Source of the DNA: Bdellovibrionales bacterium
GTDB taxonomy: Bacteria > Bdellovibrionota > Bdellovibrionia > Bdellovibrionales > JAUICD01
NCBI GenBank assembly: GCA_965262715.1
Contig: OZ253553.1
Span: 2,208,001-2,272,000, forward strand
Length of the DNA: 64,000 nt
Reading direction: 5' to 3'
Part shown: positions 3,198 to 60,274 of the stretch, in pieces
Layout: the number at the start of each line of letters is the position of its first letter
How positions within the stretch are numbered: position 1 is the stretch's first letter
Program-made: the position numbers and the translations under genes
The notes under the pieces: model-generated
The model's input: the letters and a program-made list of their open reading frames with translations, nothing else
Databases searched by the model: none
What the model was told of the DNA's origin: nothing

Positions 3198-3410
3198 CTC
3201 TGTTTCACTAAAATGCATCTGACGTCACTTTCTGGCGATAACCCTGATGGCTCCATCAGAAAATGGTTATCGCCTAGAAAGAAAGATGCATTTTAGGAAG
3301 GAGACTCTCCTCATTTTTTAACAAAATGTTAAGGAAATTTTCCATTTATTACTTACATCTTCAAGAAATTGCTGACTGCCTCAAAAATCCGTTTATTTTG
3401 AGTGAGTTTG
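3198..3410 (+). repeat. palindromic intergenic element, module A (full copy 3198-3340 plus a partial copy)
   Basis: ctgtttcactaaaatgcatct...agatgcattttag nested hairpin ending ttaacaaaatgttaaggaaat; homologous to copies at 4567, 24773, 26468, 36108, 45065 and 59491. Confidence 0.85.
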
Positions 3411-3685
3411 TATAATGCAAAACTGGTATCTTTTTTAAAACTTTTATCTCTAGTAGCATTTTTGAGATGGCTTCTATATATAATACGCGGACGCAGGTCA
3501 TAAAACCTGCCCGCACCCACTAGTCGAATCCAGTGGGGATGTTATCATTTATCTTCATCTACACTTTAAAGTTGTCAAATATTTTATTTAGAATAATATT
3601 TTTCCCTTTTAAATTTAACTCAAAGGGTTTCTTTAATTTTCAAATGGGATCATTTTAAAATAAGCCATATTTCAGAGAAATACTT

Positions 3686-4288
3686 TTATATTCCACTTTT
3701 GATATTTTTGAGTCTCTTATTTTGATTAATCGTCCATATATCCTGCTTATTATTACTAAATGACCTACTTGCACCAATTGTAAACTTTACTTTATGTCTA
3801 CCTGTATTCTCTACTTTTGCGTTTGCTGTTGCAGGAATAGCATCAGAAGTATCAGTAATGCAATCACAAGGATTACTACTAAGACACAATTTTTGTATAT
3901 TTACCAATTCGGTTTTATTACATTTTGTGTTTAAAACTTCTGGACCTTGATAACCAGGACACTGAGTTCTAGCATTTTGATGATTTGTATTGCAAACAGA
4001 AGGATTTGTGCCATCAGGCCATCCTGCATTGTAGGCTACATTACCTCTACTTCTAAACCCCATTTGTGGCAAGTTAGTGGTTCCATAGCCCCAATTAAGA
4101 GAAAAGGTGCGTTCTATAGTGTACATACTCGAAAGCAGCATTTTAGCTTCATTTTGCAAAGCTCTTCTTTGATATTTTTGGTACTGAGGAATAGCAATGA
4201 CTGTTAATATTCCTATAATAGCAACAGCCACCATAATTTCAATTAAAGAAAATCCATATTGATTGAGTTTTATTTTTACCCTTTTCAT
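3686..4288 (-). CDS. type IVa pilin-like protein
   Basis: Class III signal G|FSLIEIMVAVAIIGIL with E5; Cys-rich C-terminal region. Confidence 0.9.
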   Translation of the reverse strand: MKRVKIKLNQYGFSLIEIMVAVAIIGILTVIAIPQYQKYQRRALQNEAKMLLSSMYTIERTFSLNWGYGTTNLPQMGFRSRGNVAYNAGWPDGTNPSVCNTNHQNARTQCPGYQGPEVLNTKCNKTELVNIQKLCLSSNPCDCITDTSDAIPATANAKVENTGRHKVKFTIGASRSFSNNKQDIWTINQNKRLKNIKSGI

Positions 4289-4300
4289 AACCTCTCTCCT

Positions 4301-4720
4301 TACAAATCACCTAAATCTTTATAGTAAGTTAAAATTGAATACTTTAAGCCAAAGACGAGATATTCCGCAGAGTCATCGCTGTCTAAGCGATGGCTCGAGG
4401 ACTTCGAGGCTTGGCTTAAAATATTAAATCAAAGCTTTCAAAGATTTTTTCCTTGTTTTTTCTAAAAAAACAACACATCCCTCGTCTCTTAACATAATGT
4501 TAAGGAAATCCTGTTCTTATCTATTCTATCTTCTCTACTTCTTTTAGCCTTCTTATATAATCCAATCTCTCTGTCTCACTTAAAATGAACCTGCCTCTGG
4601 CAGCTTTTGGATAGTTAGCATGAAGGCTCACGCCTTCAATAAAATGCTAACTATCTCAAAAATCCGTTCATTTTAAGTAAACAGATATCCCTCGTCTCTT
4701 AACATTATGTTAAGGAAATC
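4301..4720 (+). repeat. composite palindromic element (module B, duplicated spacer, module A)
   Basis: Module B 4301-4480 (ttccgcaga-hairpin-tcgaggact core), module A 4567-4720; near-identical direct duplication 4477-4566 / 4687-4774. Confidence 0.85.
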
Positions 4721-4762
4721 CTGTTCTTATCTATTCTATCTTCTCTACTTCTTTTAGCCTTC

Positions 4763-5452
4763 TTATAATCCAATTTGAACATTCTTTAATCTTCCATTCT
4801 CGTTAATGTACCAATTATCATTATGTGAACTGCCTGTAAAACGTGCTGTTGCGCCAATGCCAAATTTTACTGCAGCAGCATCAGGGTCACTTTTATTATT
4901 TATCTCTATTTCATAGCTACCAAAAGTTGGTGGTATATCAAAATTTGAAGTAGCAGTAGGATTAAAGGTACATGGAGATTCATCCTTAAAATTACTGTCT
5001 TTACATACTTCTTTTACATTTGTGAAGTTTTTTAAAGCAGGAGGCGAAAGCCCTAAGTCATTATAACTAAGGCTTGGTCTATTTAAATCACTTGGCAAAT
5101 AAGGACCTTCATATTTAGTTACTGTTCCGCTACCATTAACCTCATTGATATCTGACGTTGCTGATATATGACTTGTTTCCCAACCAGCATTATAAAAGTA
5201 ATTGCCTCGAGGGAAAAACCCCAATTGATGAAAGTTGGGTGTCCCATAACCCCATTCGTCAACAAAAGCTCTTTCTTTTGCATAAAGTCCAGAAAGCAAA
5301 ACCTTTGCTTCAGTCTGCATGCCTTTTCTTTGTGATTTTTGATAATGAGGAATTCCAATCACAGTTAAAAGACCCACTATCACTAAAGTCATCAAAATTT
5401 CAGCTAAAGAAAATCCTTTTTGATCAAAATAAAAATACCATTTTTTTCTCAT
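4763..5452 (-). CDS. type IVa pilin-like protein
   Basis: G|FSLAEILMTLVIVGLL prepilin motif; paralogue of 3686..4288 (shared EAK.LLS..Y..ER.F...WGYGT.N..Q.GF..RGN..YNAGW). Confidence 0.9.
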   Translation of the reverse strand: MRKKWYFYFDQKGFSLAEILMTLVIVGLLTVIGIPHYQKSQRKGMQTEAKVLLSGLYAKERAFVDEWGYGTPNFHQLGFFPRGNYFYNAGWETSHISATSDINEVNGSGTVTKYEGPYLPSDLNRPSLSYNDLGLSPPALKNFTNVKEVCKDSNFKDESPCTFNPTATSNFDIPPTFGSYEIEINNKSDPDAAAVKFGIGATARFTGSSHNDNWYINENGRLKNVQIGL

Positions 5453-5612
5453 AAATTTAAGCTCACATATTCTCTATTTATCTTAATTTTATTATACATT
5501 ATCTGATTTCATTTTGCTGATTTTTATCTACAACGTGCTTTTATTCTTTATGATATTGGATCAAATCAATACATAAATCTTGCGGCGAATGTACTTTAGG
5601 TGGATGTTATTA

Positions 5613-5668
5613 TCCGGGATCTGGCATTCTGCCAATCCGGAAACCAGTCCCCGGGAACTGATACCAGA
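5613..5668. repeat. GC-rich short-period imperfect repeat (family C)
   Basis: tccgggatctggc...ccgggaactg; shares words with 45131-45196, 46798-46968 and (reverse) 26864-26908. Confidence 0.5.
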
Positions 5669-5759
5669 AGGTCTATTCTGAGCGCATAGATTACAATTTA
5701 TATTAAAATGCCTTATAATATCTAATTTTAAATTACAAAAGAGTTAAATAAAAGTTATT

Positions 5760-6534
5760 ATGAAAGACAAAAAGGTAACCACGCATAGACCAAAAACCTA
5801 GTAGAAACCCATAGAATCCAAAGCTTATAGTGAATATATTATCTTTGTTGATGAAAGTGGTGATCATGGCCTTGAGTCTATCGACAGCAAATATCCTCTA
5901 TTTGTTTTGAATTTTTGCATCTTCCATAAAGACAATTATATAAAAGATATTATACCAAAAATCCACAAATTCAAATTTAAACACTTTGGCTACGATACTG
6001 TAATATTACATGAACATCATATCCATAAGCAAAAACCACCTTTTACCTTCTTGCAAACTGAAAATAAACATGAAGTCTTTATGAAAGAATTAGGCAGATT
6101 GATTGAAGAACTTGAATTTACTATATTACCAGTTGTGATTAAAAAACAAGAACTGAAAATCAATACGCTAAACCCTGCAATTCTTACGAGTTGACACTTA
6201 CTTTCTGTATGGAAAAAACCTATTCCTTTCTTAGAAAACAATATCAGATTAAGAAACTTTCACATATTGTTATTTAAAAAAGAGGGCAAAAAAAGATGAA
6301 AAACTTAAACAAACTTTCCATGAAGTTTGTAATGGCAATAATTATAATGGGATAAAGATGAATAACTTTGAAATAATTTTTGCAGATAAAAAAATTAATT
6401 CCACAGGCCTACAATTAGCCGACCTAACAGCTCGCCCAATAGGCCGATATATTATGGACCCTCATCAAGACAACCGTGCGTGGAAAATTATTGAAAAAAA
6501 ATTGACTAACATTGGCATTAAAGTTTTTCCCTAA
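5760..6534 (+). pseudogene. DUF3800-family protein, multiply disrupted
   Basis: YIIFVDESGDHGLESIDSKYPLFVL at the N-terminus and KKINSTGLQLADLTARPIGR...IKVFP* at the C-terminus; in-frame stops near 5800 and frameshifts around 6150-6300. Confidence 0.8.
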
Positions 6535-6597
6535 AAAATGAAAAGCTCTAGAAACCCTAGAGCAAGTCACCGACCAGGAACAACCCCCAATCCAGTC
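6535..6597. ncRNA. candidate DUF3800-associated structured RNA motif
   Basis: Directly after the DUF3800 stop: gaaaa-gctctag aaacc ctagagc-aagtcaccgaccaggaacaacccccaatcc, GC-rich relative to its flanks; Rfam DUF3800 motifs occur beside such genes. Confidence 0.5.
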
Positions 6598-6933
6598 TTC
6601 ATAGTAACTCATGAACAATCCTTTGTCAAATCACAATGTCTTTTCTATAGCTGCTTCTGATTTATTATCTTAACCTGCATTTAATCTCTTGTTAATGTCT
6701 AAACCCAGATTTGATGTACAGTTTAGAATGCAATGTTTGATTTACGGACCTCAAACCCCATTTATTTATACTTTTAGCTGGTATATTTCTTGCTTATACC
6801 TTAAATATCCACTCAAGAGGGGTGTAAAATCTGAAGAAACAACTTTTAGAAAATATTGTATGAGCGCAGGAAATAAGATAAAAGAACAAATGTACATGAT
6901 ATAATAAAGAGAAAATAATAAAGGGTTAAAGTA

Positions 6934-7566
6934 ATGAGTTCAAAGAATAAACACAATCAAAAAGATCAAGAGAAAACACCTGCTTTTAATGAAGTTTGGC
7001 AAATATTGAAAGAAACTGCTAAAGAGCGAAAAGAATCTCATAAAGCTTTCAAAGAAGAAATGAAAGAGAGCCGAATAAAATTTGATAAAGACATGGAAGA
7101 AAGTCGTATAGAATTTGATAAAAACATGAATGAAATGCGAGGTATTTGGAATAATGCTTGGACTGATTTTGTAGAAAGTTTGGTAAGTGGCTCTCTAGCT
7201 AAAATGCTTCAAGAATGGATGCCTTCTATCACTCAAACTATGAAAAATATTGAGTGTTATCGTAATGGCCTTGATTGTGACATTGATATCATAGCAGTCA
7301 ATGATGAGAGCCTAGTTGCTGTTGACGTCAAATCAACTCTTAATATTAAAGATGTAAATGATTTTTTAGAAAAACTTCAAAAATTTATTATGTTTTTTCC
7401 TCAATTTAAGAATTACAATGTTTATGGAGCTCTTGCATACTTTAAAGTCACTCAAGGTGCTGACAAATTTGCAATGAAGCAAGGACTATTTGTCATCCGT
7501 GATAGCGGTGAAATTCTTAATAAAAAAGGTACTTTTAAACCTCAAATTATTAAACAGCTACCATAA
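6934..7566 (+). CDS. coiled-coil plus PD-(D/E)XK nuclease-like protein (DUF3782-like)
   Basis: DIDIIAVNDESLVAVDVKSTL motif; N-terminal 11-aa coiled-coil repeats. Confidence 0.7.
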   Translation: MSSKNKHNQKDQEKTPAFNEVWQILKETAKERKESHKAFKEEMKESRIKFDKDMEESRIEFDKNMNEMRGIWNNAWTDFVESLVSGSLAKMLQEWMPSITQTMKNIECYRNGLDCDIDIIAVNDESLVAVDVKSTLNIKDVNDFLEKLQKFIMFFPQFKNYNVYGALAYFKVTQGADKFAMKQGLFVIRDSGEILNKKGTFKPQIIKQLP

Positions 7567-7672
7567 AACTTTAAGAAACAACTTTTAGAAAATATTGTAT
7601 GAAAGCAAAAAACAAGATAGAAGAATAAATCTATATGATATAATGAAGAGAAAATGATGAAAGGTTAAAATA

Positions 7673-8392
7673 ATGAGTTTAAAGGATAAACACAATCTAA
7701 AAAATAAAGAAAAAATACCTACTTTTGATGAAGTTTGGCAAATATTGAAAGAAACTGCTAAAGAGCGAAAAGAATCTCATAAAGCTTTCAAAGAAGAAAT
7801 GAAAGAGAGCCGGATAAAGTCTGATAAAGACATGGAAGAAAGTCGAATAAAGTCTGATAAAGACATAAAAGAAAGTCGTATAGAATTCAATAAAAAACTA
7901 GAAGAGAGTCGGATAGAATTTGATAAAAAAATGAATAAAATGCGTGGTATCTGGAGTAATGCTTGGGGTGATTTTGTAGAAAGTTTGGTAAGCGGCTGTC
8001 TAGTTAAAATGCTCCAAGAATGGATACCTTCTATCAATCAAATTATGAAAAATATTGAATGTCATCGCAATGGTCATGATTGTGAAATTGATATCATAGC
8101 AGTCAATAATGAGAGCCTAGTTGCTGTTGAAGTCAAGTCAACTCTTAATATTAAAGATGTAAATAACTTTTTAGAAAAACTTCAAAGATTTGCTATGTTT
8201 TTTCCTCAATTCAAGAATTACAATGTTTATGGAGCTGTTGCATACCTTAAAGTCACTCAAAGTGCTGACAAGTTTGCAATGAAACAAGGATTATTTGTCA
8301 TACGTGCTACTGGCGATAGTGGTGAAATTCTTAATAAAAAAGGAGCTTTTAAACCTCAAGTCATCAAACAAATCCCTTTGAAGTATCTCTAA
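7673..8392 (+). CDS. coiled-coil plus PD-(D/E)XK nuclease-like protein (DUF3782-like), tandem paralogue
   Basis: EIDIIAVNNESLVAVEVKSTL; close duplicate of 6934..7566 with extra EESRIKSDKDM-type repeats. Confidence 0.75.
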   Translation: MSLKDKHNLKNKEKIPTFDEVWQILKETAKERKESHKAFKEEMKESRIKSDKDMEESRIKSDKDIKESRIEFNKKLEESRIEFDKKMNKMRGIWSNAWGDFVESLVSGCLVKMLQEWIPSINQIMKNIECHRNGHDCEIDIIAVNNESLVAVEVKSTLNIKDVNNFLEKLQRFAMFFPQFKNYNVYGAVAYLKVTQSADKFAMKQGLFVIRATGDSGEILNKKGAFKPQVIKQIPLKYL

Positions 8393-8415
8393 AGCAATAT
8401 ATCTATAGAATTTAG

Positions 8416-8841
8416 CTAAGACAATCTTTGAGAAGATATGGCCTTTTTTTGTGAAAATTCAAGTTCTTTTAGGGTTTTTTGTGCTTTTTCTTCAATTTTA
8501 TCAAGATCTGATCGCATTCGTTGTTTTAAAAGCCAATTTTCCTCTGCAATATTTAGAGCAGCTAAGATGGTCGCCATCTGAAAAGACCCACTTTTTAAAC
8601 AATTACGAGATTCTGTGAATTTTTTATTCACATAATAAACTAGTTTGCGAACTGTCTCTTCATCATAAGAAGACTTGACTTTAAGACTCATCTCGCCAAT
8701 CTTAACTCTAAAAAAATCTTTCTTTGCATTCTGATCAATAGAATTTTTCATGGCATTGGCTTTCATTTTTTTACTTTTATTGACTTTAAACGTATCTGTC
8801 ATTATTAAGATAATCGCATTAAGGCATTTGTATTGTGGCAC
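8416..8841 (-). CDS. zapA: cell division protein ZapA (true start probably about 8751-8766)
   Basis: VKIGEMSLKVKS...VRKLVYYVNKK...ILAALNIAEE plus C-terminal coiled coil. Confidence 0.8.
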   Translation of the reverse strand: MPQYKCLNAIILIMTDTFKVNKSKKMKANAMKNSIDQNAKKDFFRVKIGEMSLKVKSSYDEETVRKLVYYVNKKFTESRNCLKSGSFQMATILAALNIAEENWLLKQRMRSDLDKIEEKAQKTLKELEFSQKKAISSQRLS

Positions 8842-8905
8842 GTCTTATTATTTCATACAACAAAAGAAGTGCTATTGTTAGTGCCCATGACAAAAAGGAA
8901 TTTTT

Positions 8906-10200
8906 ATGAAGATTTTAATTATTGGAAGCGGGGCGAGAGAACACGCTATTATATACAACCTCAAATCTTCATCTACAAAAAAAGAGCTTTTTTGTTTTCC
9001 AGGCAGTGATGCTATATTTGAAGATGCTAGCCCTCTTCCAAATCAAATAACATCCGATATCTCTGCCTCAAAACTCAAAAACTTAGGTATTTCAATGGTA
9101 GTGATTGGTCCTGAAGCTCCTTTAGTTCAAGGCCTTGCAGATAACTTACGTAAAGAAGGACTTTTGTTTTTGGCCCATCAAAGGTAGGAGCAAAACTTGA
9201 AGGCTCTAAAATTTATGCTAAAGAATTTATGACAGAAGCCAAAATACCCACATCAAAATATCATATTGTATCTAACAAGATAGAAACCATCTCAATTGCT
9301 AAAAAACATTTTAATCCACCTTATGTGCTAAAAGTGGACAGTTTAGCTGCAGGCAAAGGCGTTTACATATCTCACAATCTCAAAGAATTGGAAGATGCTG
9401 CCATAGAAGTCTTTGAAAAAAAGCGCTTTGGTGATTCGCTAGCTTTATTAGAAGAGTACCAGAAAGGACAAGAGTTAAGCTATCTCGTACTAACTAATGG
9501 TAAGGACTTTATAGCTTTACCTATTGTTCAAGATTACAAACCTTTACTAGATGGCAATAAAGGGCCTAATACAGGAGGTATGGGAGCTGTTGGCCCTTTA
9601 AGCTTATCATCTGATTTAAAACAAAATATCGAAGCTAATATCGTAAAACCAACCATCCTCTCTCTTGAAAAAAACTCCATCGATTATAGAGGTGTTTTGT
9701 ATATAGGGCTTATTATCACTAAAACAGGACCAAAAGTTTTAGAATATAATGTGAGATTTGGAGACCCTGAAGCACAAGTGATTTTACCTTTACTTAAAAA
9801 TGATTGGCAAGATGTCTTTGAAAGCATAGCTAAAGGCATTTTACCTCCACTTCATTGGAAAGACAAATTTGTTAGTGTTGTTGTTGCTGTATCAGAAGGT
9901 TATCCAAAAGATTTTCAAAAAGGCTTTCCCATTTATGGCGACTTATCCCATAGGGACTTATCCCGTAGGGACTTATCCCATACAGATTTATCACAAAACC
10001 TCCATAATAGTTATTTTCTACATGCAGGAACAAAAAAAAATCCTCAAAATGAATGGATCACCTGTGGGGGAAGGGTTTTAAATGCTGTAGGCATTGGACA
10101 AACAAAACAGCAAGCTCTAGAAATATCTTACAAATCTCTTAAAAACATTGATTTTCAAGGGATAAGGTATAGGAAAGATATTGGGCAAGTCTATTCATGA
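8906..10200 (+). CDS. purD: phosphoribosylamine-glycine ligase, frameshift near 9165 (possible sequencing error)
   Basis: MKILIIGSGAREHAI, VIGPEAPLVQGLAD, then in a shifted frame FGPSKVGAKLEGSK, GPNTGGMGA, EYNVRFGDPE. Confidence 0.9.
9940..9999 (+). repeat. 15-bp in-frame tandem repeat x4 inside purD
   Basis: gacttatcccatagg / gacttatcccgtagg / gacttatcccataca / gatttatcacaaaac, encoding DLSHR DLSRR DLSHT DLSQN. Confidence 0.9.
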
Positions 10201-10799: not shown

Positions 10800-11215
10800 A
10801 CTATTTCATCTCCAAATGTTTAACAAAAATTATTATTTTGGGGATTGAACCAATAAGGTTTTACTGTACATTATGAAAGATTGTAGGTATCCTCCAAATG
10901 CTTTATAGAAATAAACTGACATTATTTTGCACCTAAAAACATTTAAATGGCTCAAAATTGGCACTTATACAATTTAATGCTAAAAGCCACAAATTAGGGA
11001 TATCATACATGATGACCTATTGTGCCTCTTTGTGTCTAATAAATAAACATTAAAAAAGCTGTGGTTTTTTAATATCTTATATATACTCTACCCATAAAAT
11101 ACACGAGTACTCTAAAATCTCTTGTTATAAAGTAGGCCACAACTTCTTATTCTATCCTGCTTGTATTTTTTAAAAAAATATAATACTTTCAACACCTTAT
11201 ACTTCTTACTTTTTT

Positions 11216-11231
11216 TGGCCTCTAATTTGCC
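11216..11231 (+). promoter_or_regulatory. sigma54 -24/-12 promoter candidate
   Basis: TGGCCT-CTAAT-TTGCC with correct GG/GC spacing, 55 bp before the metalloprotease ATG. Confidence 0.55.
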
Positions 11232-11285
11232 TTACTTAATTATAGAAGATGAAATAATTAATTTAAGTAAAGAAGTATAAAAAGT

Positions 11286-18957: not shown

Positions 18958-18963
18958 AATATT

Positions 18964-24772: not shown

Positions 24773-25587
24773 CTCTGTTTCACTAAAAATGTCTCTGGCC
24801 TCTGGCCACTTTCTGGCAATAAGCCTGAAGGGTAATACCTTCAGAAAAAGCTTATTGCCTAGAAAGAATGAAACATTTTTAGTAACAAGAGAATCTCCTC
24901 GTTATTTAATATAATGTTAAGGAAAATTTCCTCTGTTTCAGTAAAAATGTCTCTGGCCTCTGGCCACTTTCTGGCAATAAGCCTGAAGGGTAATACCTTC
25001 AGAAAAAGCTTATTGCCTAGAAAGAATGAAACATTTTTAGTAACAAGAGAATCTCCTCGTTATTTAATATAATGTTAAGGAAAATTTCCTCTGTTTCAGT
25101 AAAAATGTCTCTGGCCTCTGGCCACTTTCTGGCAATAAGCCTGAAGGGTAATACCTTCAGAAAAAGCTTATTGCCTAGAAAGAATGAAACATTTTTAGTA
25201 ACAAGAGAATCTCCTCGTTATTTAATATAATGTTAAGGAAAATTTCCTCTGTTTCAGTAAAAATGTCTCTGGCCTCTGGCCACTTTCTGGCAATAAGCCT
25301 GAAGGGTAATACCTTCAGAAAAAGCTTATTGCCTAGAAAGAATGAAACATTTTTAGTAACAAGAGAATCTCCTCGTTATTTAATATAATGTTAAGGAAAA
25401 TTTCCTCTGTTTCAGTAAAAATGTCTCTGGCCTCTGGCCACTTTCTGGCAATAAGCCTGAAGGGTAATACCTTCAGAAAAAGCTTATTGCCTAGAAAGAA
25501 TGAAACATTTTTAGTAACAAGAGAATCTCCTCGTTATTTAATATAATGTTAAGGAAAATTTCCTCTGTTTCAGTAAAAATGTCTCTG
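24773..25587 (+). repeat. tandem array of 158-bp module-A palindromic units (5 full plus 25 bp)
   Basis: Unit starts at 24773, 24931, 25089, 25247, 25405 and 25563; units read as identical except cactaaaa versus cagtaaaa in the first. Confidence 0.95.
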
Positions 25588-25686
25588 ATCACAGTTCTTT
25601 AAGTTGATAAATAGGATTAAAGGCCTACTTGGTTTGAGTAAATAGATTCAATTTTACAAAACCTTATTTTACAAGAGGAGACCGCT

Positions 25687-26467: not shown

Positions 26468-26863
26468 CTGTTTCACTAAAAATGCCTTTTGCCTCTGGCA
26501 ACTTTCTGGCATTGCCCTCCAAACTGGCTTACGCCGTTTGACAAATAGGGCAATACCTAGAAAGCATAAGGCATTTTTAGTAAGGAGACTACCCTCGTCC
26601 CTTTACAAGATGTTAAGGAAAATTTCCTCTTACCATCTTATTTTTTATACACATCCCTCTAACAAATTACCTAAATCTTTAAATAGCTTATAAGAATTGA
26701 TGCATAAGTTAAAGGACGAGATCTTCCGCAGAGAAATTGCTATTGGCAATTTCTCGAGGACTTCGAGAACTTAACTTATGCATCAATTCAAAACTTTCAA
26801 AGATTTTTTTCTCTGTTTTTTCTAAAAAAACAGCACATCCCTTAACTCTGGCCACTTTCTGGC
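26468..26863 (+). repeat. composite palindromic element: A, linker, B, start of A
   Basis: A 26468-26626 (aaaaatgcctt/aaggcattttt stem); B 26661-26841 (gaattgatgcataagtt/aacttatgcatcaattc stem, ttccgcaga...tcgaggact core). Confidence 0.88.
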
Positions 26864-27049
26864 ATGGCAGAAATCGCTTCCCGGCAACAGTTTACCTGTT
26901 TTCCAGAAAAAGATAATGGAAGTTCATTGCTCGAGGGCACTCTGCCATTAGTGAAAAACCCTGCCAAAAGACACTACTAATATATGCAAATATTTTGCAG
27001 CAAGGCCCATTTGATGTATAAATATCAGTTAAAGGTTATAAAATATTGG

Positions 27050-35415: not shown

Positions 35416-35458
35416 TTTTACTTAATTTTAATATTAAGTTATTTATCATCCTAAATCA

Positions 35459-36108
35459 CCGGTTTATTTTTAGGAAAGAGACTACCCTCGTTTTTTTACA
35501 TCATGTTAGGGAAATTGTTTTTGTTTCCTAAAAATAAACCTGCCTCTATTTCACTAAAATGCACCTGACCTCTGGTCACTTTCTGGCAGTTAGCATTTTT
35601 TTGAAGGCGTAAGCCTTCAGGCTAATTGCCCAAAAACTGCCAAAGGTAAGGGATGTATTGTTTTTTAGAAAAACAAGGAAAAAACCTTTGGGGCAATGAC
35701 TGGATATTTATGGCAAAGCCAAGTAGTCCTCGATGGGATCGCTTTTTAGCGATCCCATCTGCGGAAGAACCTGTCTTTGCCATAAATATCCAGTCTTATC
35801 TTGCTATGAAAAGATTAAAGGTAATTTGTAGAGGAGAAAGTAGGAAATGAGAAATAAAATAGTAAACGATTCCCTTAACATCGTGTAAAAGAATGAGGAT
35901 AGTCTCCTTCCTAAAAATAAACGGATTTTTGAGGCAGGTTCATTTTTAGGGATACAGTTTCCTTAACATCGTGTTAAAGAACGAGGGTAGTCTCTCTCCT
36001 AAAAATAGTCAGGCTTTCTAGGCATTGCCCTATTTGCCAAACGGCGTGAGCCAGTTTGGGGGCAATGCCAGAAAGTGGCCAGAGGCCAGACTATTTTTAG
36101 GGATACAG
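35459..36108. repeat. composite array of palindromic modules A and B in mixed orientation
   Basis: Reverse A 35958-36108 (aaaaatagtc/gactattttt stem), reverse B 35651-35830 (closely similar to 59951-60128), further A fragments 35459-35648 and 35868-35957. Confidence 0.88.
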
Positions 36109-43787: not shown

Positions 43788-44908
43788 TGAGTCAATATTT
43801 ACAAGTAGAAAAAAAATCTTTACTTCACAAAATTGACTGGCGTTTAGTCACAGTTATTTTATTTTTAAATGTTGTTGGACTTTTGAATCTATATAGCGCG
43901 ACTCATGGAGTTCATACAATAGGTTTAAGCAGAAATTTCTTATTTCAAATAACATGTCTTTTAGGAGGATGGACTGTTTTTACTATAATCACACTCATAA
44001 ACTACAAACATTTGATACGATTTTCTTATATTTTTTACATTTTAAATCTTATAGCTTTAATATTAGTTCCTTTTATTGGTCGTTCTACATATGGTGCTAA
44101 AAGATGGATAGATCTTGGATTTTTTAGTTTTCAGCCTTCTGAAACCATGAAGGTTGCGCTGATTTTGATATTAAGCCATCTTTTAATTCATCACAGATAT
44201 ATACAACTATTAAGGTTAAAAGACTTAGCAATACCATTTTTAGTAACTATCATACCTTTCATTCTCACTCTCCGTCAGCCAGATTTAGGAACAGCTATGA
44301 TATTTTTAGCAATAACTCTTTCTATGATTTTATTTATAGGCATACAAAGACCAATTTTTATTGCATGCATTTTCATGGGCATTATAGCTATACCACTTGC
44401 TTGGAATTTTGCTTTAAAGGATTATCAAAAAGGGAGAATTTTAACCTTTTTAGATCCTTCAAGAGACCCTCAAGGTTCTGGCTACAATTCCAATCAATCG
44501 AAAATATCTATAGGCTCAGGTCAAATACTGGGCAAAGGATTTAGGCAAGGCACTCAATCACAATTAAGATTTTTGCCTGAAAGGCATACTGATTTTATAT
44601 TTAGTGTTTTAAGCGAGGAGCATGGTTTTTTAGGTAGTATGGCCACTGTCGGACTTTTTTCTCTTCTACTACTTATAGGTATAAGCATTGCCTCTACCGC
44701 TGCTGACAAAACAGGAGCACTGCTTTCTATGGGATGCGTAGCTGTTCTTTTTTGGCATATATTTGTAAACATTGGAATGGTAACAGGTTTATTGCCAATT
44801 GTTGGCATTCCTCTCCCGCTATTATCTTACGGCGGATCTAATCTTTTACTCACCATGTTCACTCTCGGCCTCATATCAAGTGTAGCGGTGAATAAGAATC
44901 TATTTTAG
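43787..44908 (+). CDS. rodA: rod shape-determining protein RodA
   Basis: GAKRWI, FQPSE, QPDLGTA, LPERHTDFIF, PLLSYGGS. Confidence 0.96.
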   Translation: MSQYLQVEKKSLLHKIDWRLVTVILFLNVVGLLNLYSATHGVHTIGLSRNFLFQITCLLGGWTVFTIITLINYKHLIRFSYIFYILNLIALILVPFIGRSTYGAKRWIDLGFFSFQPSETMKVALILILSHLLIHHRYIQLLRLKDLAIPFLVTIIPFILTLRQPDLGTAMIFLAITLSMILFIGIQRPIFIACIFMGIIAIPLAWNFALKDYQKGRILTFLDPSRDPQGSGYNSNQSKISIGSGQILGKGFRQGTQSQLRFLPERHTDFIFSVLSEEHGFLGSMATVGLFSLLLLIGISIASTAADKTGALLSMGCVAVLFWHIFVNIGMVTGLLPIVGIPLPLLSYGGSNLLLTMFTLGLISSVAVNKNLF

Positions 44909-44914
44909 TGAAAC

Positions 44915-45065
44915 GATTTCCTTAACATTTTATTAAAAGACGAACAGAGTCTCCTTACTAAAAATAAACGGGTTTTTGAGGCAGTTAGCACTTTCTTGAA
45001 GACGTAAGTCTTCAGGCTAACTGTCCAAAAATGACCAGAGGTCAGTTTATTTTTAGGGAAACAGC
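44915..45065 (-). repeat. module-A palindromic element flanked by 32-bp direct repeats
   Basis: tagcggtgaataagaatctattttagtgaaac at 44883-44914 and 45066-45097. Confidence 0.9.
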
Positions 45066-45130
45066 TAGCGGTGAATAAGAATCTATTTTAGTGAAACAGA
45101 TAATTTACCTAAGTTACACCATTAAACTAT

Positions 45131-47378: not shown

Positions 47379-47410
47379 AATATAATATGTAGCTCTCTTC
47401 GGAGAGGTAT

Positions 47411-47733
47411 CTGCCTTACTAAAAATGAACATGATTTTGAGACAATTAGCATTTTCTTGAAGACTTAGGCTTTTCAGACTAACTGGTAAATAACAACACT
47501 TTCCTTAACATTGTGTTAAAAAACGAGGGGAGCCTCCCTCCTAAAAATAAACAGGTTTTTGAGGTAGTTAGCATTTTCTTGAAGATGCAAGTCTTCAGGC
47601 TAATTAGATACATTTAAAGAGTCTATCATCTATAAATTAGACACCTGTAATCTTTAAAAATCTCAGTGAGACAAGCCTTAACGCTTGTCTATTCCAAAAA
47701 TGACCAGAGGTCAGTTTATTTTGAGTGAAACAG
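47411..47733 (-). repeat. module-A element copies (one partial, one interrupted)
   Basis: ttccttaaca...ctaaaaataaacagg...gttagcattttcttgaaga...ttcaggctaa and terminal ccagaggtcagtttattttgagtgaaacag. Confidence 0.8.
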
Positions 47734-50184: not shown

Positions 50185-50387
50185 AAGCTTCTATACTTAT
50201 TCATTCATCTTACTTATGCAATTTTTATAACTTTAAGAAACTTGTTGTTTATTGATTTATCTAAGTTAAAACTTACTTGATGGCCATCTTTCGGAATCCA
50301 AAAGTCCAAGAGATTGAAAATCTGGCAGTCTGCTTATTTTGAACTTTTCCCTAATTTTTTCTCCCAACAAAAGATAAATAAAAAGTT

Positions 50388-50442
50388 GTATCCCTAAAAA
50401 TGAACCACTCTCGACAAGCCTGTTTATTTTGAGTGATACAGC
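50388..50442. repeat. internally deleted module-A remnant
   Basis: tgtatccctaaaaatgaac...gtttattttgagtgataca terminal inverted repeat. Confidence 0.65.
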
Positions 50443-54144: not shown

Positions 54145-54160
54145 CGCTCCATACTATCAA

Positions 54161-55861
54161 TCACATCTCCGAAGGAGTAGGCACTCCTAAAATTGAAAGG
54201 CTCTGACTTAAGATGTTTTCTACACAATAAACTAATGTCATACGTGTATCTTCCATATCTTTATCATTTTCTCCTAGGATTCTGTGATTATTATAAAAAG
54301 TGTTAAACTCCTGACACAATTTTAAAACATATTGAGCAAGAATGTGTGGTTTAAAAGTCCTCCATGCTGTTTGTAAAATCTCTGAGAAGTACATCAAAGT
54401 TACTAATAGCTGCATCTCCTCTTGTGTTTCAATATCTTTTTTAAAACAAGTACAAACATCTTTCTTATATTTTTTTAAAAGACTGCGACAACGGACTAAA
54501 CAATACTGAGCATAAGGCCCACTATCACCATTAAAATCAAGTACCTTAGACCAATCAAAATCAATATTTCTTATGCGGTCATGCAGCAAATCATTAAATA
54601 TGATGGCACCTACACCTACCTGTTTTGCAACCTCTTCCTTATCTTGTAAAACAGATTTCTTTTCTTCTATAATTTTATAAGTTCGTCCAACTGCTTCTTT
54701 TAAAACATCTGCCATAAATATGACATTACCTTTTCGTGTCGACATTTTACCATCTTTGAATCTATACAAACCAAAAGCAATATGATGACAATCTTTTGCC
54801 CAACTTAAGCGCATTTTATCCAAAACACCAAAAATTTGTTTAAAGTGCAATGACTGTTCTGAGCCTACAACATATAAAAGTTCATCAGCTTTAATCACCT
54901 CATGACGATAAAGAGCGCTGGCAATATCTCTAGTTGCATAGAGTGAAGAGCCATCTGATTTTTTAATTAAACAAGGAGGTCCATCTTCCAAAAAAACAAC
55001 AAAGGCTCCCTCGCTTTCTTTTAAACATCCTGCATCTTGAATTCTTTTTACAACCTTATCCAAGCTATCTTTGTAGAAAGATTCTCCTTGAACAACATCA
55101 AAGCTTACACCTAGAAGATCATATAATTTTTTATGTTCTTTAAGAGTTATAGAAATAAAACGTTGCCATAATTTGGTTATATCCGGATCTCCAGCCTCTA
55201 ATTTTCTAAAATACTCTGCACCTTTTTCTTTCAATTCAGGTTTATCTTCCATCTCATCATGGAAGCGTACATATAACTGATAAAGAGCTTGCAGTGGCTG
55301 CGTTTCAAAGTCATATTCCTCACTCCATTTCTGATAAGCATAAGCTAAATGACCAAACTGAACACCCCAATCTCCTAAATGATTCCATCTTACAACTTCA
55401 AATCCTTGTGTCTTTGCTAAATGACATAGGCAATGACCAATAACAGTTGCCCTAAGATGGCCTATGCCTAAAGGTTTTGCGACATTAGGAGAAGAATATT
55501 CAATAATGATTTTTTTTGAAGTCTTTTTTTTATGGAGTTGCTTTGAAAAAACAAAATCACATAAAAGCTTTTCAAGATAAAGACTTGAGAATTTAAAATT
55601 AACAAACCCACTAATAGCCTCTACAGAGGTAATTCCATTGATATTCTTTTGAAGAACTTCTTTTGATATTTGAGTTGCTAATTGATGTGGATTTTGACGC
55701 AACTCTTTTGATAAAGAAAAAACAGGCAGAGCTAGATGACCGTGAGAAAAAGTCTTAGGTAATGTTAATGCTCTGGAGATATCTTCTACACTTTGCCAAG
55801 ATGTGTTTTCAAATAAAGAAAGTAAGTTCTGTGATAATTCTTTTTTGATAGCAGTTAACAT
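54161..55861 (-). CDS. argS: arginyl-tRNA synthetase
   Basis: EYSSPNVAKPLGIGHLR, NHLGDWG, KMSTRKG, GDSGPYAQY. Confidence 0.97.
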   Translation of the reverse strand: MLTAIKKELSQNLLSLFENTSWQSVEDISRALTLPKTFSHGHLALPVFSLSKELRQNPHQLATQISKEVLQKNINGITSVEAISGFVNFKFSSLYLEKLLCDFVFSKQLHKKKTSKKIIIEYSSPNVAKPLGIGHLRATVIGHCLCHLAKTQGFEVVRWNHLGDWGVQFGHLAYAYQKWSEEYDFETQPLQALYQLYVRFHDEMEDKPELKEKGAEYFRKLEAGDPDITKLWQRFISITLKEHKKLYDLLGVSFDVVQGESFYKDSLDKVVKRIQDAGCLKESEGAFVVFLEDGPPCLIKKSDGSSLYATRDIASALYRHEVIKADELLYVVGSEQSLHFKQIFGVLDKMRLSWAKDCHHIAFGLYRFKDGKMSTRKGNVIFMADVLKEAVGRTYKIIEEKKSVLQDKEEVAKQVGVGAIIFNDLLHDRIRNIDFDWSKVLDFNGDSGPYAQYCLVRCRSLLKKYKKDVCTCFKKDIETQEEMQLLVTLMYFSEILQTAWRTFKPHILAQYVLKLCQEFNTFYNNHRILGENDKDMEDTRMTLVYCVENILSQSLSILGVPTPSEM

Positions 55862-55882
55862 CTTTGTCCAAAAATGTTGTTT

Positions 55883-57538
55883 TTAAAATCTATTATTGCT
55901 TTTCATTTTCTCCAAGAAAACAGCAACTTGAGGCGATAAGAGATCAAATCCTTCTATATGGCTTTCTTTTATAGATTTATCCATTTGTTCACCCATAACT
56001 TTTAATTCTTGTTCTATAATTTGAAGCTCTCTTGTCAATTCTAAATCAAGCTCTTCCTTAACATATCCTAATGCAGACGATTGTAATTGATTAAAGGAGG
56101 TTTCCCATGAGGAATAAAAACTTCTCCACTCTGTTACATCTTTATTATATCGATCATATCCCTTTTCTAGCTGCCTAACCTGACCATAAAGAGTTTCCAC
56201 ACTTTTTGGAACAGGTTGTTTTTGCTTAGCAATAACATTTACGATTTTTCTTCTTTTAATTGTTTCAAGCTTTTGTTTTTCTTGTTGCCTAATTTGATGA
56301 AATTCTGACAACTTATAAGTAAATGTTTCTTTATCTTTCCCAACAAAAAATTTGCGACTGAAAAACTTATCTTCATCTATTTGTCCTAAAAAAGTATAAT
56401 ACCCTTCTACCAACTCCAAATGATCTAATCGCAGTATAGCACGCCCATCTTTATCTAAAACAAGCTTAATATGATGTTCAAATTTATTGGCTGTTAATGT
56501 TTGCTGTCTATCATTCTTTATTTTTAGCAGTACTTTTGATTTAGCGTACTGCTCAATCCAAAAATGCAACTCTAATCCATTATGCAAAACTTTATATTGT
56601 AAAGGTATATTCTTTTTATGTAACTTTTCATTCATATAAGAAGGCAGTAATAAATAACCTATAACACATAAAGACACAAAAAATATACCTATTATATAAA
56701 GCCCTTTACTCAAATAACTACGATTTTGATTTTTTGACCCAGTTAAAGAAGATAAAAGATGACTTGAAAACTTTTCTTCTTGGATAGATTGATGTGATAA
56801 GCTTTTTGAACGTATCACATCACTATCTTTGTTTTGACCAAATTTTAAATTTCCAAACTGCTTTGTCAAGCTAGGCCCTTGAGCTTCATCTACTTTCTTC
56901 CCTGTCTCTATCAAAGAAGATATAAGAGATGATGAAGGCTTTGCTCTCATTACAGATTGATATAATTCTACATCTGAAACTTCTCCTAAGTTAAAAGATT
57001 TTGTATTTGAAGCTTTTTCTGCATTTTCAGTTGCTATTTGCTTATTAAATATAGGTAAATTTCTAATACATTTCCAATCTTTCATTCCATGTGTCCAAAT
57101 CCAATGAGAATAAAATATTTCCCCCTTATGAAGGGCTTGTAGCACTTCTTTTGTAGAGTAACAAAGGTATTGATAATTAGAAAGACTTTTGTTTTTAGAA
57201 TTATCCTCTATATTTTCTTGCTTTAAAACCACCCAATCTTTTTTAGGCATATTTTGCACTTTATTGCTTTTTGAAATTGCTTTTTGAAATTGCCATCTGT
57301 CTATAACACAAGTCCATCTCTTTTCTCCAGAACAATAAATAAGATCATCAGTATCAATTTCTTTCTGCTCAATCATTTTTTCCATCTCTAATAACGAAAA
57401 TGGCCCTTTCACTTGACCTAAAATGCAGTGGTACCAATTTTTCATCCTTACCTCTTTTTTATTGACAAAACAGGGGCTATTTAAGTTATTTTTATAATGT
57501 AACCCTTTAATTTTTAAGCTTTTTTTTAATAAACACAA
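55883..57538 (-). CDS. GYF_2 (DUF4339)-domain membrane protein (start probably 57445)
   Basis: WYHCILGQVKGPFS and WIWTHGMKDWK GYF-like units; central TM. Confidence 0.7.
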   Translation of the reverse strand: MCLLKKSLKIKGLHYKNNLNSPCFVNKKEVRMKNWYHCILGQVKGPFSLLEMEKMIEQKEIDTDDLIYCSGEKRWTCVIDRWQFQKAISKSNKVQNMPKKDWVVLKQENIEDNSKNKSLSNYQYLCYSTKEVLQALHKGEIFYSHWIWTHGMKDWKCIRNLPIFNKQIATENAEKASNTKSFNLGEVSDVELYQSVMRAKPSSSLISSLIETGKKVDEAQGPSLTKQFGNLKFGQNKDSDVIRSKSLSHQSIQEEKFSSHLLSSLTGSKNQNRSYLSKGLYIIGIFFVSLCVIGYLLLPSYMNEKLHKKNIPLQYKVLHNGLELHFWIEQYAKSKVLLKIKNDRQQTLTANKFEHHIKLVLDKDGRAILRLDHLELVEGYYTFLGQIDEDKFFSRKFFVGKDKETFTYKLSEFHQIRQQEKQKLETIKRRKIVNVIAKQKQPVPKSVETLYGQVRQLEKGYDRYNKDVTEWRSFYSSWETSFNQLQSSALGYVKEELDLELTRELQIIEQELKVMGEQMDKSIKESHIEGFDLLSPQVAVFLEKMKSNNRF

Positions 57539-57689
57539 TAGGAATTACAAACTGAGCTACTCTTTAGTCCTAAAGTCTAAAAATAACATCCTAAGTTTTA
57601 TACAATCATAAGATTAAAATGATAAAAGATAAAAATGAGTATTGATAAAAATCAACAAATGTCTTATTACCAATTAAATAAGGTGAAAT

Positions 57690-58844
57690 ATGTTTAAAGT
57701 ATTCTTAGGGTCACAACTGGTTGCCATTGGTAATATGATTTACCTGTCTTACATACACTATAATCTCAAATTTGGGATAGGTGAAAAAAGCCTTTGTAAT
57801 ATCAATGATACATTTAATTGTGACATTGTAAATCTAAGCACTTATGCCACTCTATTAGGGCAACCCATAAGTCTTTGGGGGGTTTTTGCTAACTTAACTC
57901 TTTTGTTTTTAGGTGTGTCAGCATACATTGAGGAGAAAGAAAGTAAAAAATACTTTACGACACTTCTTAGCACTTTATTTGCAGCTGGTATTGCTGCAGC
58001 TTCTGTCATTTTTGCAACAATTTCCTTCTTTGTATTAGAAACCTATTGCCTATTTTGTATATTTGCTTATATTTTATCTTTTATTTCTTTAGCTTCTTTA
58101 ATAATCTGGCGAACATTACATTCCAAACAAAATAAACCAAATCTTATAACAGAAATTATTGATTTTAAAAAATATTCTCATCTCTTCTTACCCATTTTCC
58201 TAATAATTCCAATAACTTTAATAACTCATAGCATTGTAAAAACAAATATGGCTGGTCAATATCTAAAACAATTAGATTCTTTATTTGATGAGTGGATGGA
58301 CAGTCCAATTATAGAATTTCAAACTGACGAAGCTTTAATACACACTACAACCCAAGAGTCTAAAATGACAATCCTTGAATTTGCAGACTTTCAATGTCCT
58401 GCTTGCCAAAGAGCTTCTGGGGTACTCCATAACTTCATGAAATCCAGAGATGACGTTAGATTCGTTTTCATGTTTTTTCCCTTAGATAATGCTTGTAATG
58501 AATCTGCACTTAGAGCTGGAAATGGTCGTTCTTGCTGGCTGGCTTCTGCCACTTATTGCGCCAACAAACAAAATAAGGGCTGGCTAATGCATGATTGGAT
58601 TTTTGAAGTATTTAGTGAGATAAAAAGAAGCGATCTAGACAAAGTTGCAAACGATATAGGCTTAGATCATCAGCAGTTTACTAAGTGTTTAGATGATAGT
58701 AACACTTTAGAAATTATTAAGTCACAAGCTCGACAAGGAGAAAAAGCAAATATTAGAGGTACTCCGAGCATATTCATTAACGGCAAATACCTTCCATCTG
58801 CCCCATCTTGGATGATGTTAGAAAGAATTTACAACTCTCTCTAA
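57690..58844 (+). CDS. VKOR-DsbA/thioredoxin fusion
   Basis: CNINDTFNC and YCLFC (VKOR); FADFQCPAC and GTPSIFING (DsbA). Confidence 0.9.
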   Translation: MFKVFLGSQLVAIGNMIYLSYIHYNLKFGIGEKSLCNINDTFNCDIVNLSTYATLLGQPISLWGVFANLTLLFLGVSAYIEEKESKKYFTTLLSTLFAAGIAAASVIFATISFFVLETYCLFCIFAYILSFISLASLIIWRTLHSKQNKPNLITEIIDFKKYSHLFLPIFLIIPITLITHSIVKTNMAGQYLKQLDSLFDEWMDSPIIEFQTDEALIHTTTQESKMTILEFADFQCPACQRASGVLHNFMKSRDDVRFVFMFFPLDNACNESALRAGNGRSCWLASATYCANKQNKGWLMHDWIFEVFSEIKRSDLDKVANDIGLDHQQFTKCLDDSNTLEIIKSQARQGEKANIRGTPSIFINGKYLPSAPSWMMLERIYNSL

Positions 58845-58855
58845 CAGTTGTTGTC

Positions 58856-59362
58856 CTAAGAAGACTTCATTTGACAAGGTAATACTTCTAATCGAGTTAC
58901 TGAACCTGTATAGGATTTGTTATGAGGAGCAAGCCTCTCTTTTTCTTCATCATCAAGCTTCACAGTTCTATGAGCATCTGAAAGGGCAACAATAGGAGTT
59001 TTTAAAGACCTATCCGTACTTTCCATCTGATTAAAAGCTCCTTCAAAATTAAAGGTTTTACATATAAAATTACGCTCTTCATAGTCATCTTGAACATAAT
59101 AACGATTTTCTTCTTCATCAATAACTTGAATCCCATGTAATAAAGTGATGTTTTTTTCTTTATTATGTTCCATTCTTTGAACAACAATTATTTTCTCATC
59201 ATTAGGAAACTCAAGCTCTATTTGAATACTTCTAGATAGAGAAGATGGAAGATTACCATAAGTTAAAGGGATCGCAAACAACTGATCAAGATTTGAAAAG
59301 CCAATAATAACGCCTAAAATAAATAATAAGGCATGTAAAGCAAACAATTTTATTTTTTTCAT
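58856..59362 (-). CDS. secreted or membrane-anchored hypothetical protein
   Basis: N-terminal hydrophobic segment; AGGAG RBS. Confidence 0.7.
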   Translation of the reverse strand: MKKIKLFALHALLFILGVIIGFSNLDQLFAIPLTYGNLPSSLSRSIQIELEFPNDEKIIVVQRMEHNKEKNITLLHGIQVIDEEENRYYVQDDYEERNFICKTFNFEGAFNQMESTDRSLKTPIVALSDAHRTVKLDDEEKERLAPHNKSYTGSVTRLEVLPCQMKSS

Positions 59363-59390
59363 TTAAAACTCCTTCTATATATACTTATTA

Positions 59391-59406
59391 AGCAAAATAC
59401 ATACCA
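59391..59406 (-). promoter_or_regulatory. sigma54 promoter candidate
   Basis: TGGTAT-GTATT-TTGCT on the minus strand, about 30 bp before ATG 59362. Confidence 0.55.
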
Positions 59407-59490
59407 ATTTGATACAGATTAAAAGGGCACTTAAATGTATTTAAGAGTTAATATAAGAGACAAAAATAGGGTTTTTACCAAAAAAAGTCA

Positions 59491-60274
59491 CTCTTTCCCT
59501 AAAAATAAACCAGCCTCTGGCTGTTTTTGGGCAGTCAGCCTGAAGATTTACATCTTCAAGAAAATGCTGACTGCCTCAAAAACCTGTTTATTTTTAGGAG
59601 GGAGACTCCCCTCGTTCTTTAACACGATGTTAAGGAAATCGCTGACTACTTTATCCCTAGTTCCTCTTACTATCTCTTCCTCCCCTTACAAATTACATTA
59701 AATCTTTTCATAGCAACTTAAGATTTTTCCTTGTTTTTTCTAAAAAAACAACACGCCCCTTAACTCTGGCTGTTTTTGGACAGTTAGCCTGAAGGCTCAC
59801 GCTACGGGATATATCATCTTCAAGAAAATGCTGACTGCCTCAAAAACCTGTTTATTTTTAGGAGGGAGACTCCTCTCGTTCTTTAACACGATATTAAGGA
59901 AATCGCTGACTACTTTATCCCTAGTTCCTCTTACTATCTCTTCCTCCCCTTACAAATCACACCAAATCTTTAGCAAGATAAGACTGGATATTTATGGCAA
60001 AAAGACAAGTTCTTCCGCAGATGGGATCGCTAAAAAGCGATCCCATCGAGGACTACTTGGCTTTGCCATAAATATCCAGTCATTGCCCCAAAGATTTTTT
60101 CCTTGTTTTTCTAAAAAACAATACACCTCTTGCCTCTGGCTGTTTTTGGGCAGTCAGCCTGAAGGCTCACGCTACGGAATATATCTCCTTCAAGGAAATG
60201 CTAACTGCCTCAAAAAGCTGTTCATTTTTAGGAGGGAGATTCTCTTCATTTTTTGACAAGATGTTAAGGAAATC
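59491..60274 (+). repeat. composite array A-linker-B(short)-A-linker-B-A
   Basis: Three A modules ending ttaaggaaatc at 59640, 59904 and 60274; B core ttccgcagatgggatcgct...agcgatcccatcgaggact near 60013-60054. Confidence 0.9.

What the first reader, a model, noticed from the sequence alone, without database searches (positions are those of the whole stretch)
3198..60274. Modular palindromic element family with compensatory covariation at about 10 intergenic loci
Seen: module A (about 150 bp) keeps fixed ends (ctgtttc[a/c]ctaaaa and ggagact..cctcgt...ttaaca..atgttaaggaaat), while its stems change sequence between copies yet stay paired. Outer stems: aaaatgcatct/agatgcatttt (3198), aaaaatgcctt/aaggcattttt (26468), aaaaatagtc/gactattttt (36108 reverse). 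Middle stems: CGATAACC/GGTTATCG, CAATAAGC/GCTTATTG, CATTGCCCT/AGGGCAATA, ATAGTTAGCA/TGCTAACTAT, GCAGTCAGC/GCTGACTGC. Modules assemble into mosaics (A-B-A-B-A at 59491-60274; mixed orientation at 35459-36108), as BIME/REPIN arrays do. No transposase is in the window. Inference: a non-autonomous element whose structure rather than sequence is conserved (ssDNA hairpin or RNA), mobilised in trans.
Basis: partly seen in the sequence, partly recalled or inferred. Interest (0 to 1): 0.8.

Follow-up and report, generated by a model that had tools for sequence, protein, structure and literature searches.

The report
Enzyme-orphan folded selfish DNA repeat
A 150-base repeat with a conserved three-armed fold sits between genes hundreds of times in one genus of uncultured Bdellovibrio-like bacteria and likely spreads as folded single-stranded DNA, yet none of the known enzyme families we searched for that move such DNA was found in the relative where it is copying fastest.

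Summary
Module A is real at 8 intergenic loci in the window, with about 450 copies in this genome and over 1,100 in its congener G001. Its three-way-junction fold covaries beyond a tree-based null (16 pairs, all inside the structure), almost entirely through Watson-Crick swaps. Rfam has no match. It is confined to this genus among 151 genomes of the order; the one outside hit lies on contaminant contigs.

It is mobile: orthologous positions are mostly not shared, empty paralogous sites exist, and identical copies sit at 8 separate G001 loci. Junctions are asymmetric: a fairly fixed left end, a right end running on 8-27 bases, and no fixed target duplication. Insertions lose or duplicate target DNA (an exact 32-bp duplication at 44883-45097). 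Module C is a second covarying hairpin family, not part of A.

It behaves like REP/BIME or one-ended IS91, but no RAYT, IS91 or IS110 enzyme was found in either genome, and no Y1 enzyme or reverse transcriptase in G001. Best reading: a non-autonomous single-strand element with an unidentified or lost HUH-like mobiliser. The scan reported this family before in other windows of this genome. New variant of a known kind.

The parts
3200..3337 (+). module A, variant lacking the small P2 arm; a right-half fragment follows at 3352-3404
4302..4469 (+). module C, a second covarying hairpin family, followed by an isolated A tail ending at 4508
4509..4567 (+). duplicated right flank (about 58 bp, repeated at 4719-4775, reaching the stop codon of ORF 4763-5452), joined to the left end of the next A
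   Evidence: read from the sequence
4571..4718 (+). module A, full length
24775..25590 (+). five near-identical 158-bp head-to-tail A units plus a terminal partial left end
26468..26621 (+). module A, full length, long P4 variant
26622..26890 (+). pyrimidine-rich linker B, module C (26662-26829) and the start of a variant A left half
35443..36108 (.). mixed-orientation mosaic: A tail (+), partial A (+, from 35546), variant A and C (-, 35659-35829), partial A (-), full A (-, 35958-36108)
44917..45064 (-). module A, full length, just past the rodA-family stop codon
44883..44914 (.). 32-bp stretch (a left-end remnant plus the gene's 3' end), copied exactly at 45066-45097 on the other side of the element
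   Evidence: 100% over 32 bp
47402..47733 (-). A with an internal insert (47500-47733) followed by a partial A
59491..60272 (+). array: A (59491-59638), B, A' (59732-59902), B+C (C at 59952-60120), A'' (60103-60272)

Best explanation
Module A is a genus-specific, non-coding mobile repeat with a conserved three-way-junction fold that likely moves as folded single-stranded DNA, by a nick-and-strand-transfer (HUH-like, REP/BIME- or IS91-style) reaction whose enzyme is not identified. Shown: copy number, the fold, mobility, a narrowly placed left junction, a variable right run-on, no fixed target duplication, nesting into its own small hairpins, and local duplications whose source lies mostly on the right-end side. 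Inferred: an enzyme supplied in trans recognises the fold and the invariant motifs (left CnCTnAAA, right ATGTTARG), nicks at the foot of the main stem and joins that left end to a target. Copying then runs past the right tail and is resolved, probably by host repair at short microhomologies, 8-27 bases further on and sometimes kilobases. That would give target loss or duplication, tandem arrays, captured gene ends and A/B/C mosaics. Selection for the fold among donors would explain the Watson-Crick covariation.
For: Left junctions with a traceable source: 78 of 92 break between -12 and -3 (the search could not see breaks left of -12). Local duplications with non-element targets have their source on the right-end side in 18 of 20 events in G000 and 13 of 20 in G001. 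No position-wise target-duplication signal in 209 unique copies. Empty paralogous sites show replacement of 0-29 bp or duplication of 17 bp, and the window shows an exact 32-bp duplication. Left ends follow the element's own P2 arm in 45 of 317 and 140 of 883 cases, and an opposite-strand tail in 76 of 883 in G001. An identical core occurs at 8 separate G001 loci. 61 of 667 G001 copies are at least 98% identical to a copy with unrelated flanks, against 4 of 259 in G000. In helices P1-P4, 4269 of 4654 cells are Watson-Crick, 49 G.T and 119 A.C. The junction geometry matches the BIME amplification model of Fig. 7B in PMC3333891 (passages read) and one-ended transposition in PMC13181058 (passages). 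PMC3333891 also notes that REPs persist in strains lacking tnpAREP.
Against: No HUH enzyme was found that could do it. RAYT, Y2, Rep_trans, TrwC and Relaxase are missing from both genomes; the Rep_1 search had no positive control; Y1 is present only in G000. There is no GTAG tag at either end (0-1 of each set) and CGTC is near only 23 of 883 left ends. There is no fixed target tetranucleotide and no link to local GC skew (p=0.55 and 0.30; the skew is weak or broken in both genomes). The direction bias is weaker in G001 (35 downstream, 18 upstream, 6 inverted with all targets). Core mismatches favour wobble on the bottom strand (A.C over G.T on top: 21 vs 7 and 58 vs 22), whereas a simple left-end nick would displace the top strand. 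The 60 filled/empty pairs are noisy and not independent.
Confidence: 0.5

Rival explanations
1. No dedicated enzyme: the hairpins stall replication or transcription, and host template switching, microhomology repair and gene conversion copy them, with palindrome correction producing the matched changes.
For: No cognate enzyme found. Microhomology at the P2 loop and at right junctions. Hairpin-rich targets such as tRNA ends and CRISPR repeats, hit at the same repeat position in both genomes. SbcD is found in G000, where copies are older, but not in G001. G000 has other short tandem duplications, such as four damaged tRNA copies.
Against: Invariant terminal motifs across three species, and the same bulge and junction geometry, are not needed for slippage. 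Whole units land at distant empty sites. G002-G004 also lack SbcD and carry no element on their genuine contigs.
Confidence: 0.22
2. SINE-like retro-copying: read-through transcripts of the bottom strand are reverse-transcribed from a target nick. The left end would be the RNA's 3' end and the variable right run-on its 5' end.
For: Wobble favours the bottom strand. All 8 G000 local duplications that break inside a gene are in genes transcribed towards the right end. Genes within 150 bp of the right end point at it 49 vs 12 in G000 and 57 vs 21 in G001. Variable target duplication or loss is typical of target-primed retro-insertion (recalled). G000 has a group II intron RT and a retron RT.
Against: No RT in G001, the more active genome. 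Wobble is very rare for an RNA. Orientation to flanking co-directional genes is 76:52 in G000 but 74:71 in G001. The 3'-end proximity may only reflect the room promoters need.
Confidence: 0.13
3. Module A is the cis-acting part of a new system whose protein is one of the expanded small families next to it: the four-helix-bundle (TIGR02436, Avd-like) gene or an Rpn/PD-(D/E)XK nuclease.
For: Four-helix-bundle genes lie within 300 bp of A in 13 of 20 cases in G000 (background 14% of 2105 genes) and 10 of 10 in G001 (background 28%). It is one of two orthologue pairs flanked on both sides in both genomes. PDDEXK_2-family ORFs are within 300 bp in 30 of 30 cases in G001.
Against: A often sits inside and breaks these genes. 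G004 has 19 four-helix-bundle matches, and 0 of the 5 loci examined have A. The 3 intact PDDEXK_2 genes of G000 have no A within 1.2 kb. There is no constant RAYT-like arrangement, and other dispensable families are also adjacent.
Confidence: 0.1
4. A host-selected regulatory RNA or promoter/terminator module whose fold is kept for function.
For: Strong covariation; terminator-like stems exceed shuffles (8 vs 0.8+/-1.0); a TTAACA half-site in the tail resembles a -35 box.
Against: Positions are near chance between orthologues (17 of 70 upstream, 15 of 104 downstream shared). Both orientations occur, copies break genes, promoter-like matches are at chance level (3 vs 2.6), and Rfam has no match.
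Confidence: 0.05

Closest known systems
REP/BIME and REPINs mobilised by RAYT (TnpA-REP) (PMC3333891 and PMC3116915, passages read; PMC8266576, abstract and introduction read)
   Same: Extragenic, hundreds of copies, compensatory stem changes, tandem arrays that include flanking DNA, nesting in or next to existing copies, capture of gene fragments, no fixed target duplication
   Different: An asymmetric 150-nt three-way junction with a tail rather than 20-50-nt palindromes in inverted doublets; no GTAG/CGTC tag; no RAYT in either genome
IS91/IS1294 one-ended rolling-circle transposition (PMC13181058, passages read)
   Same: One narrowly placed end, a leaky other end, co-mobilised adjacent DNA
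   Different: No Y2 enzyme, no GTTC/CTTG target, and targets are lost or duplicated by variable lengths
bcr1 of the Bacillus cereus group, with YPAL/RU-2, ERIC and RPE as size-class relatives (PMC3184786, passages read)
   Same: About 155 bp, a branched fold kept by compensatory changes, positions not conserved between relatives
   Different: bcr1 has 5-bp direct repeats and is transcribed; A has no fixed direct repeat, its transcription is untested, and no sequence likeness to these families was tested
Classical MITEs moved by DDE transposases
   Same: Short, non-coding, non-autonomous; the genome holds several DDE-type IS families (most names recalled from the sequences)
   Different: Only an 8-of-11 likeness between the end motifs, true ends lying outside them, and no fixed target duplication

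Membership tests
REP/BIME/REPIN | GTAG or CGTC tag at the foot of the palindrome | tested here: not met
   GTAG near 0 of 317 and 0 of 883 left ends, and 1 of 383 and 1 of 945 right ends; CGTC near 3 of 317 and 23 of 883 left ends
REP/BIME/REPIN | Cognate RAYT gene flanked by the repeats | tested here: not met
   NF047646 found in 0 of 2 genomes; the single Y1 in G000 is IS200-type with its own ends; none in G001
REP/BIME/REPIN | Extragenic, compensatory changes, tandem and nested arrays | tested here: met
   0 of 241 and 0 of 369 loci inside ORFs of 120 aa or more (broken genes are not counted)
MITE (DDE-mobilised) | Terminal inverted repeats | tested here: inconclusive
   End motifs match at 8 of 11 positions (profiles), but junctions lie 3-9 and 8-27 bases outside them
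MITE (DDE-mobilised) | Fixed-length target site duplication | tested here: not met
MITE (DDE-mobilised) | Ends matching a resident IS | not tested
   IS ends were not aligned to A; IS families are not enriched within 300 bp of A
IS91/ISCR non-autonomous derivative | Y2 transposase in the genome | tested here: not met
   PF04986 found in 0 of 2 genomes (no control genome passed the cut-off)
IS91/ISCR non-autonomous derivative | Fixed tetranucleotide target at the oriIS end | tested here: not met
   target profiles
IS91/ISCR non-autonomous derivative | One-ended capture of adjacent DNA | tested here: met
IS110/bridge-RNA element | IS110 recombinase; variable guide matching the target | tested here: not met
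   PF02371 missing from G000 and G001; the right run-on matches the left flank no better than shuffled pairs
Non-autonomous retroelement | Reverse transcriptase in the same genome | tested here: inconclusive
   Present in G000, not found in G001
Non-autonomous retroelement | RNA intermediate | not testable with these tools
   no RNA run was listed
Known structured RNA family | Rfam match at the gathering score | tested here: not met
   only a tRNA in the window

The most novel reading that the evidence does not exclude
A structure-recognised mobile DNA that has reached about 6% of a bacterial genome, moved by an enzyme outside the described Y1, Y2, RAYT, IS110 and RT families (a new single-strand transposase, or a co-opted host or four-helix-bundle/Rpn protein). 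It duplicates gene ends and carries dispensable genes around the chromosome.
Probability: 0.3. Interest if true: 0.8.

Novelty: new variant of a known kind. Interest (0 to 1): 0.5.

Why it matters
How palindromic bacterial repeats spread and keep their fold when no cognate transposase is in sight is unresolved. This family offers about 1,600 naturally varied copies in two single-contig genomes, a statistically solid fold, mapped junctions and a recent burst in a genome where no searched mobiliser family was found. That makes the search for the enzyme tractable, and a new single-strand transposase would matter for genome evolution and as a tool. If the enzyme proves to be a lost or plasmid-borne RAYT or Y1, the family is an ordinary extension of REP/BIME biology.

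Tried and rejected
1. Spread beyond the genus. BLAST gave 3 of 41 relatives and the covariance model 3 of 151 genomes of the order. The third genome's matches all lie on contigs C1, C4 and C11, which are 76-92% identical in protein to G000 against 45-55% for its other contigs, and which carry a second rplB. They are contaminants, so a planned G003/G004 gene comparison was dropped.
2. An exact gapped pattern that finds 73 sites in G000 found 0 in viral contigs and 0 in metagenome contigs.
3. Guide or bridge hypothesis: no signal, although one insertion in a four-helix-bundle gene looked like an inverted target copy.
4. Xer/dif or attC reading: the tail resembles a XerD arm (motif recalled) but its inner TT is not conserved. 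Both genomes have only two tyrosine recombinases, and G002, which lacks the element, has more.
5. Hammerhead or HDV ribozyme: the CTGA stretch is paired and covaries; motifs recalled, not searched further.
6. An HUH-motif regex over both predicted proteomes gave only the IS200 TnpA and what look like housekeeping hits.
7. B and C as part of one long element: of 121 C matches in G000, 32 follow an A right end, 41 are otherwise near A and 48 stand alone (counts include reverse self-matches of the palindrome). The G000 C model finds none in G001.
8. No replichore bias.
9. No RNA holder listed.
10. The test of whether long duplications end at A ends had no null and is not used (first attempt timed out).
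11. Literature searches listed no paper on this family; only listings were seen except for the five papers cited. No supplements were read.
Full report
Setting. The window is C1:2208001-2272000 of a one-contig, 2.94-Mb, 33.6% GC genome. The closest named homologue of a window gene is from a Bdellovibrionales MAG (64% identity).

Observation. The quoted stems are present as written. A profile from 7 window copies found 455 genomic hits, 293 near full length, covering 2.1% of the genome. A refined profile found 533 hits, 447 at 25 bits or more, in 241 loci, none inside an ORF of 120 aa or more. The window holds 8 loci. Rfam finds only a tRNA. Short-read contigs carry the 158-bp array unit at about 5-6 times single-copy depth, so the array is unlikely to be an assembly artefact (the runs may include the source sample).

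Structure. From 164 full-length copies of typical length, 112 remained after removing those over 95% identical. They fold into a long closing stem P1, a 5-bp arm P2, a long arm P3/P4 with an A-rich bulge, and a separate tail ending in invariant ATGTTARG. Sixteen pairs pass a tree-simulated threshold, all within the structure, and same-branch double changes number 175 against 23.4+/-4.3 (recombination between copies violates the tree assumption). A tool count on 34 copies from three species agrees. Wobble is rare: 49 G.T and 119 A.C in 4654 cells. In core pairs A.C exceeds G.T in both genomes (21 vs 7 in 44 of 47 copies; 58 vs 22 in 155 of 171), which points to the bottom strand as the tolerated or exposed one. 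Both strands fold about equally well as DNA. Module C is a second covarying hairpin family, often but not always after A.

Distribution. The element is in G000 and G001 (same genus): 1143 hits of 25 bits or more, 683 full length, 385 loci and 5.9% of the 2.4 Mb of G001 that was read. It was not found in the other genomes of the order searched, except on three contaminant contigs of G004 that come from a third close species. Pattern scans of viral and metagenome collections were empty.

Mobility. Among 992 orthologue pairs, shared occupancy is low: 17 of 70 upstream and 15 of 104 downstream. Paralogous four-helix-bundle genes and repeats give empty sites. G001 has an identical core at 8 separate loci with differing flanks, and 61 of 667 copies at least 98% identical to a copy with unrelated flanks, against 4 of 259 in G000 (equal-length pairs only). 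So G001 is the more recently active genome.

Junctions. There is no fixed target duplication. Left junctions cluster: 78 of 92 at -12 to -3 (bounded at -12 by design). The right end carries a run-on, with 18 of 26 local G001 breaks at +15 to +21. Of 60 raw filled/empty pairs, 24 have left breaks at -9 to -3; they are noisy and several descend from one event. The clean ones replace 0-29 bp of target, and one duplicates 17 bp. In the window, the copy at 44917-45064 is bracketed by an exact 32-bp duplication, and the copy at 4571 is preceded by a roughly 58-bp copy of its own right flank. Local duplications draw on DNA beyond the right end in 18 of 20 (G000) and 13 of 20 (G001) events with non-element targets. 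Favoured targets are small hairpins: the element's P2 loop, an opposite-strand tail, tRNA ends, and the same position of a CRISPR repeat in both genomes. Mixed-orientation loci have left ends outward (14 vs 1; 86 vs 7), which nesting in tails could explain.

Enzyme. G000 has one ordinary IS200-type TnpA with its own ends, a group II intron RT and a retron RT. G001 has no Y1 and no RT. Neither has RAYT, Y2, IS110, Rep_trans, TrwC or Relaxase matches. The genomes are rated 93% and 90% complete, and plasmids may be unbinned. Four-helix-bundle and Rpn-type genes are enriched next to A, but A often breaks them and the link fails in G004 and for the intact G000 PDDEXK_2 genes. They may be cargo or safe landing sites.

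Mechanism. The geometry matches the BIME amplification model (PMC3333891, passages) and one-ended IS91 transposition (PMC13181058, passages): a nick at one end, copying past the other, and joining at a variable site. I commit to that at 0.5. The enzyme, the single-strand intermediate and the strand are all inferred. Rivals are host repair alone (0.22), retro-copying of bottom-strand transcripts (0.13), a neighbouring small protein as mobiliser (0.10) and a regulatory module (0.05).

Comparison. It works like REP/BIME/REPIN but fails their tag and RAYT tests (definitions from PMC8266576 abstract and introduction, and PMC3116915 passages). It fails the MITE and IS91 membership tests. In size and compensatory fold it resembles bcr1 (PMC3184786, passages). 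Five literature searches listed no description of this family.

Earlier scan notes described this family in other windows of this genome. They gave me the three-way-junction, one-ended and four-helix-bundle leads, which I then tested. Their agreement is not counted as evidence.

Verdict: real, mobile, structure-conserved, enzyme unidentified; new variant of a known kind; interest 0.5.

Noticed in passing
window 3405-3480: Another repeated module follows the 3352-3404 A fragment; its 16-mers occur about 45 times in the genome.
   Followed up: no
window 50385-50441 (-): A roughly 57-bp mini-palindrome made of two inverted A left ends, in the third of three tandem paralogous gene units (45446, 47988, 50770) at the place where the second unit carries A copies.
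   Followed up: partly
window 59828-60256: A 142-aa ORF that only reads through the repeat array; similar ORFs recur at other arrays.
   Followed up: no
G000:C1:1927000-1930400 (L097): A group II intron with a full RT gene is inserted into a different palindromic repeat family of about 80 copies.
   Followed up: no
G000:C1:476747, 482125, 490464 and 2607213; G001:C1:369402: A is joined to CRISPR repeats: a type I-F-like repeat (label recalled) at the same position in both genomes, and a Cas12a-like repeat in G000.
   Followed up: partly
G000:C1:2198524-2198863: Four tandem damaged tRNA copies just before tRNA-Trp.
   Followed up: no
G004 contigs C1, C4, C11 (L012-L014, L125): Contaminant contigs from a species close to G000, with a second rplB 96% identical to G000's.
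   Followed up: yes
G000:C1:1722305-1726865: An sbcD gene and a following 1007-aa gene among pilin paralogues, with no counterpart in G001; sbcD not found in G002-G004 either.
   Followed up: partly
G000:C1:2650522-2652294 (L098): A retron St85-family effector-RT fusion close to tRNA-Asp and an A copy.
   Followed up: no
G001, e.g. L195:13001-15490: An 11-member family of roughly 700-aa proteins with repeated HTH units, all within 300 bp of A.
   Followed up: partly
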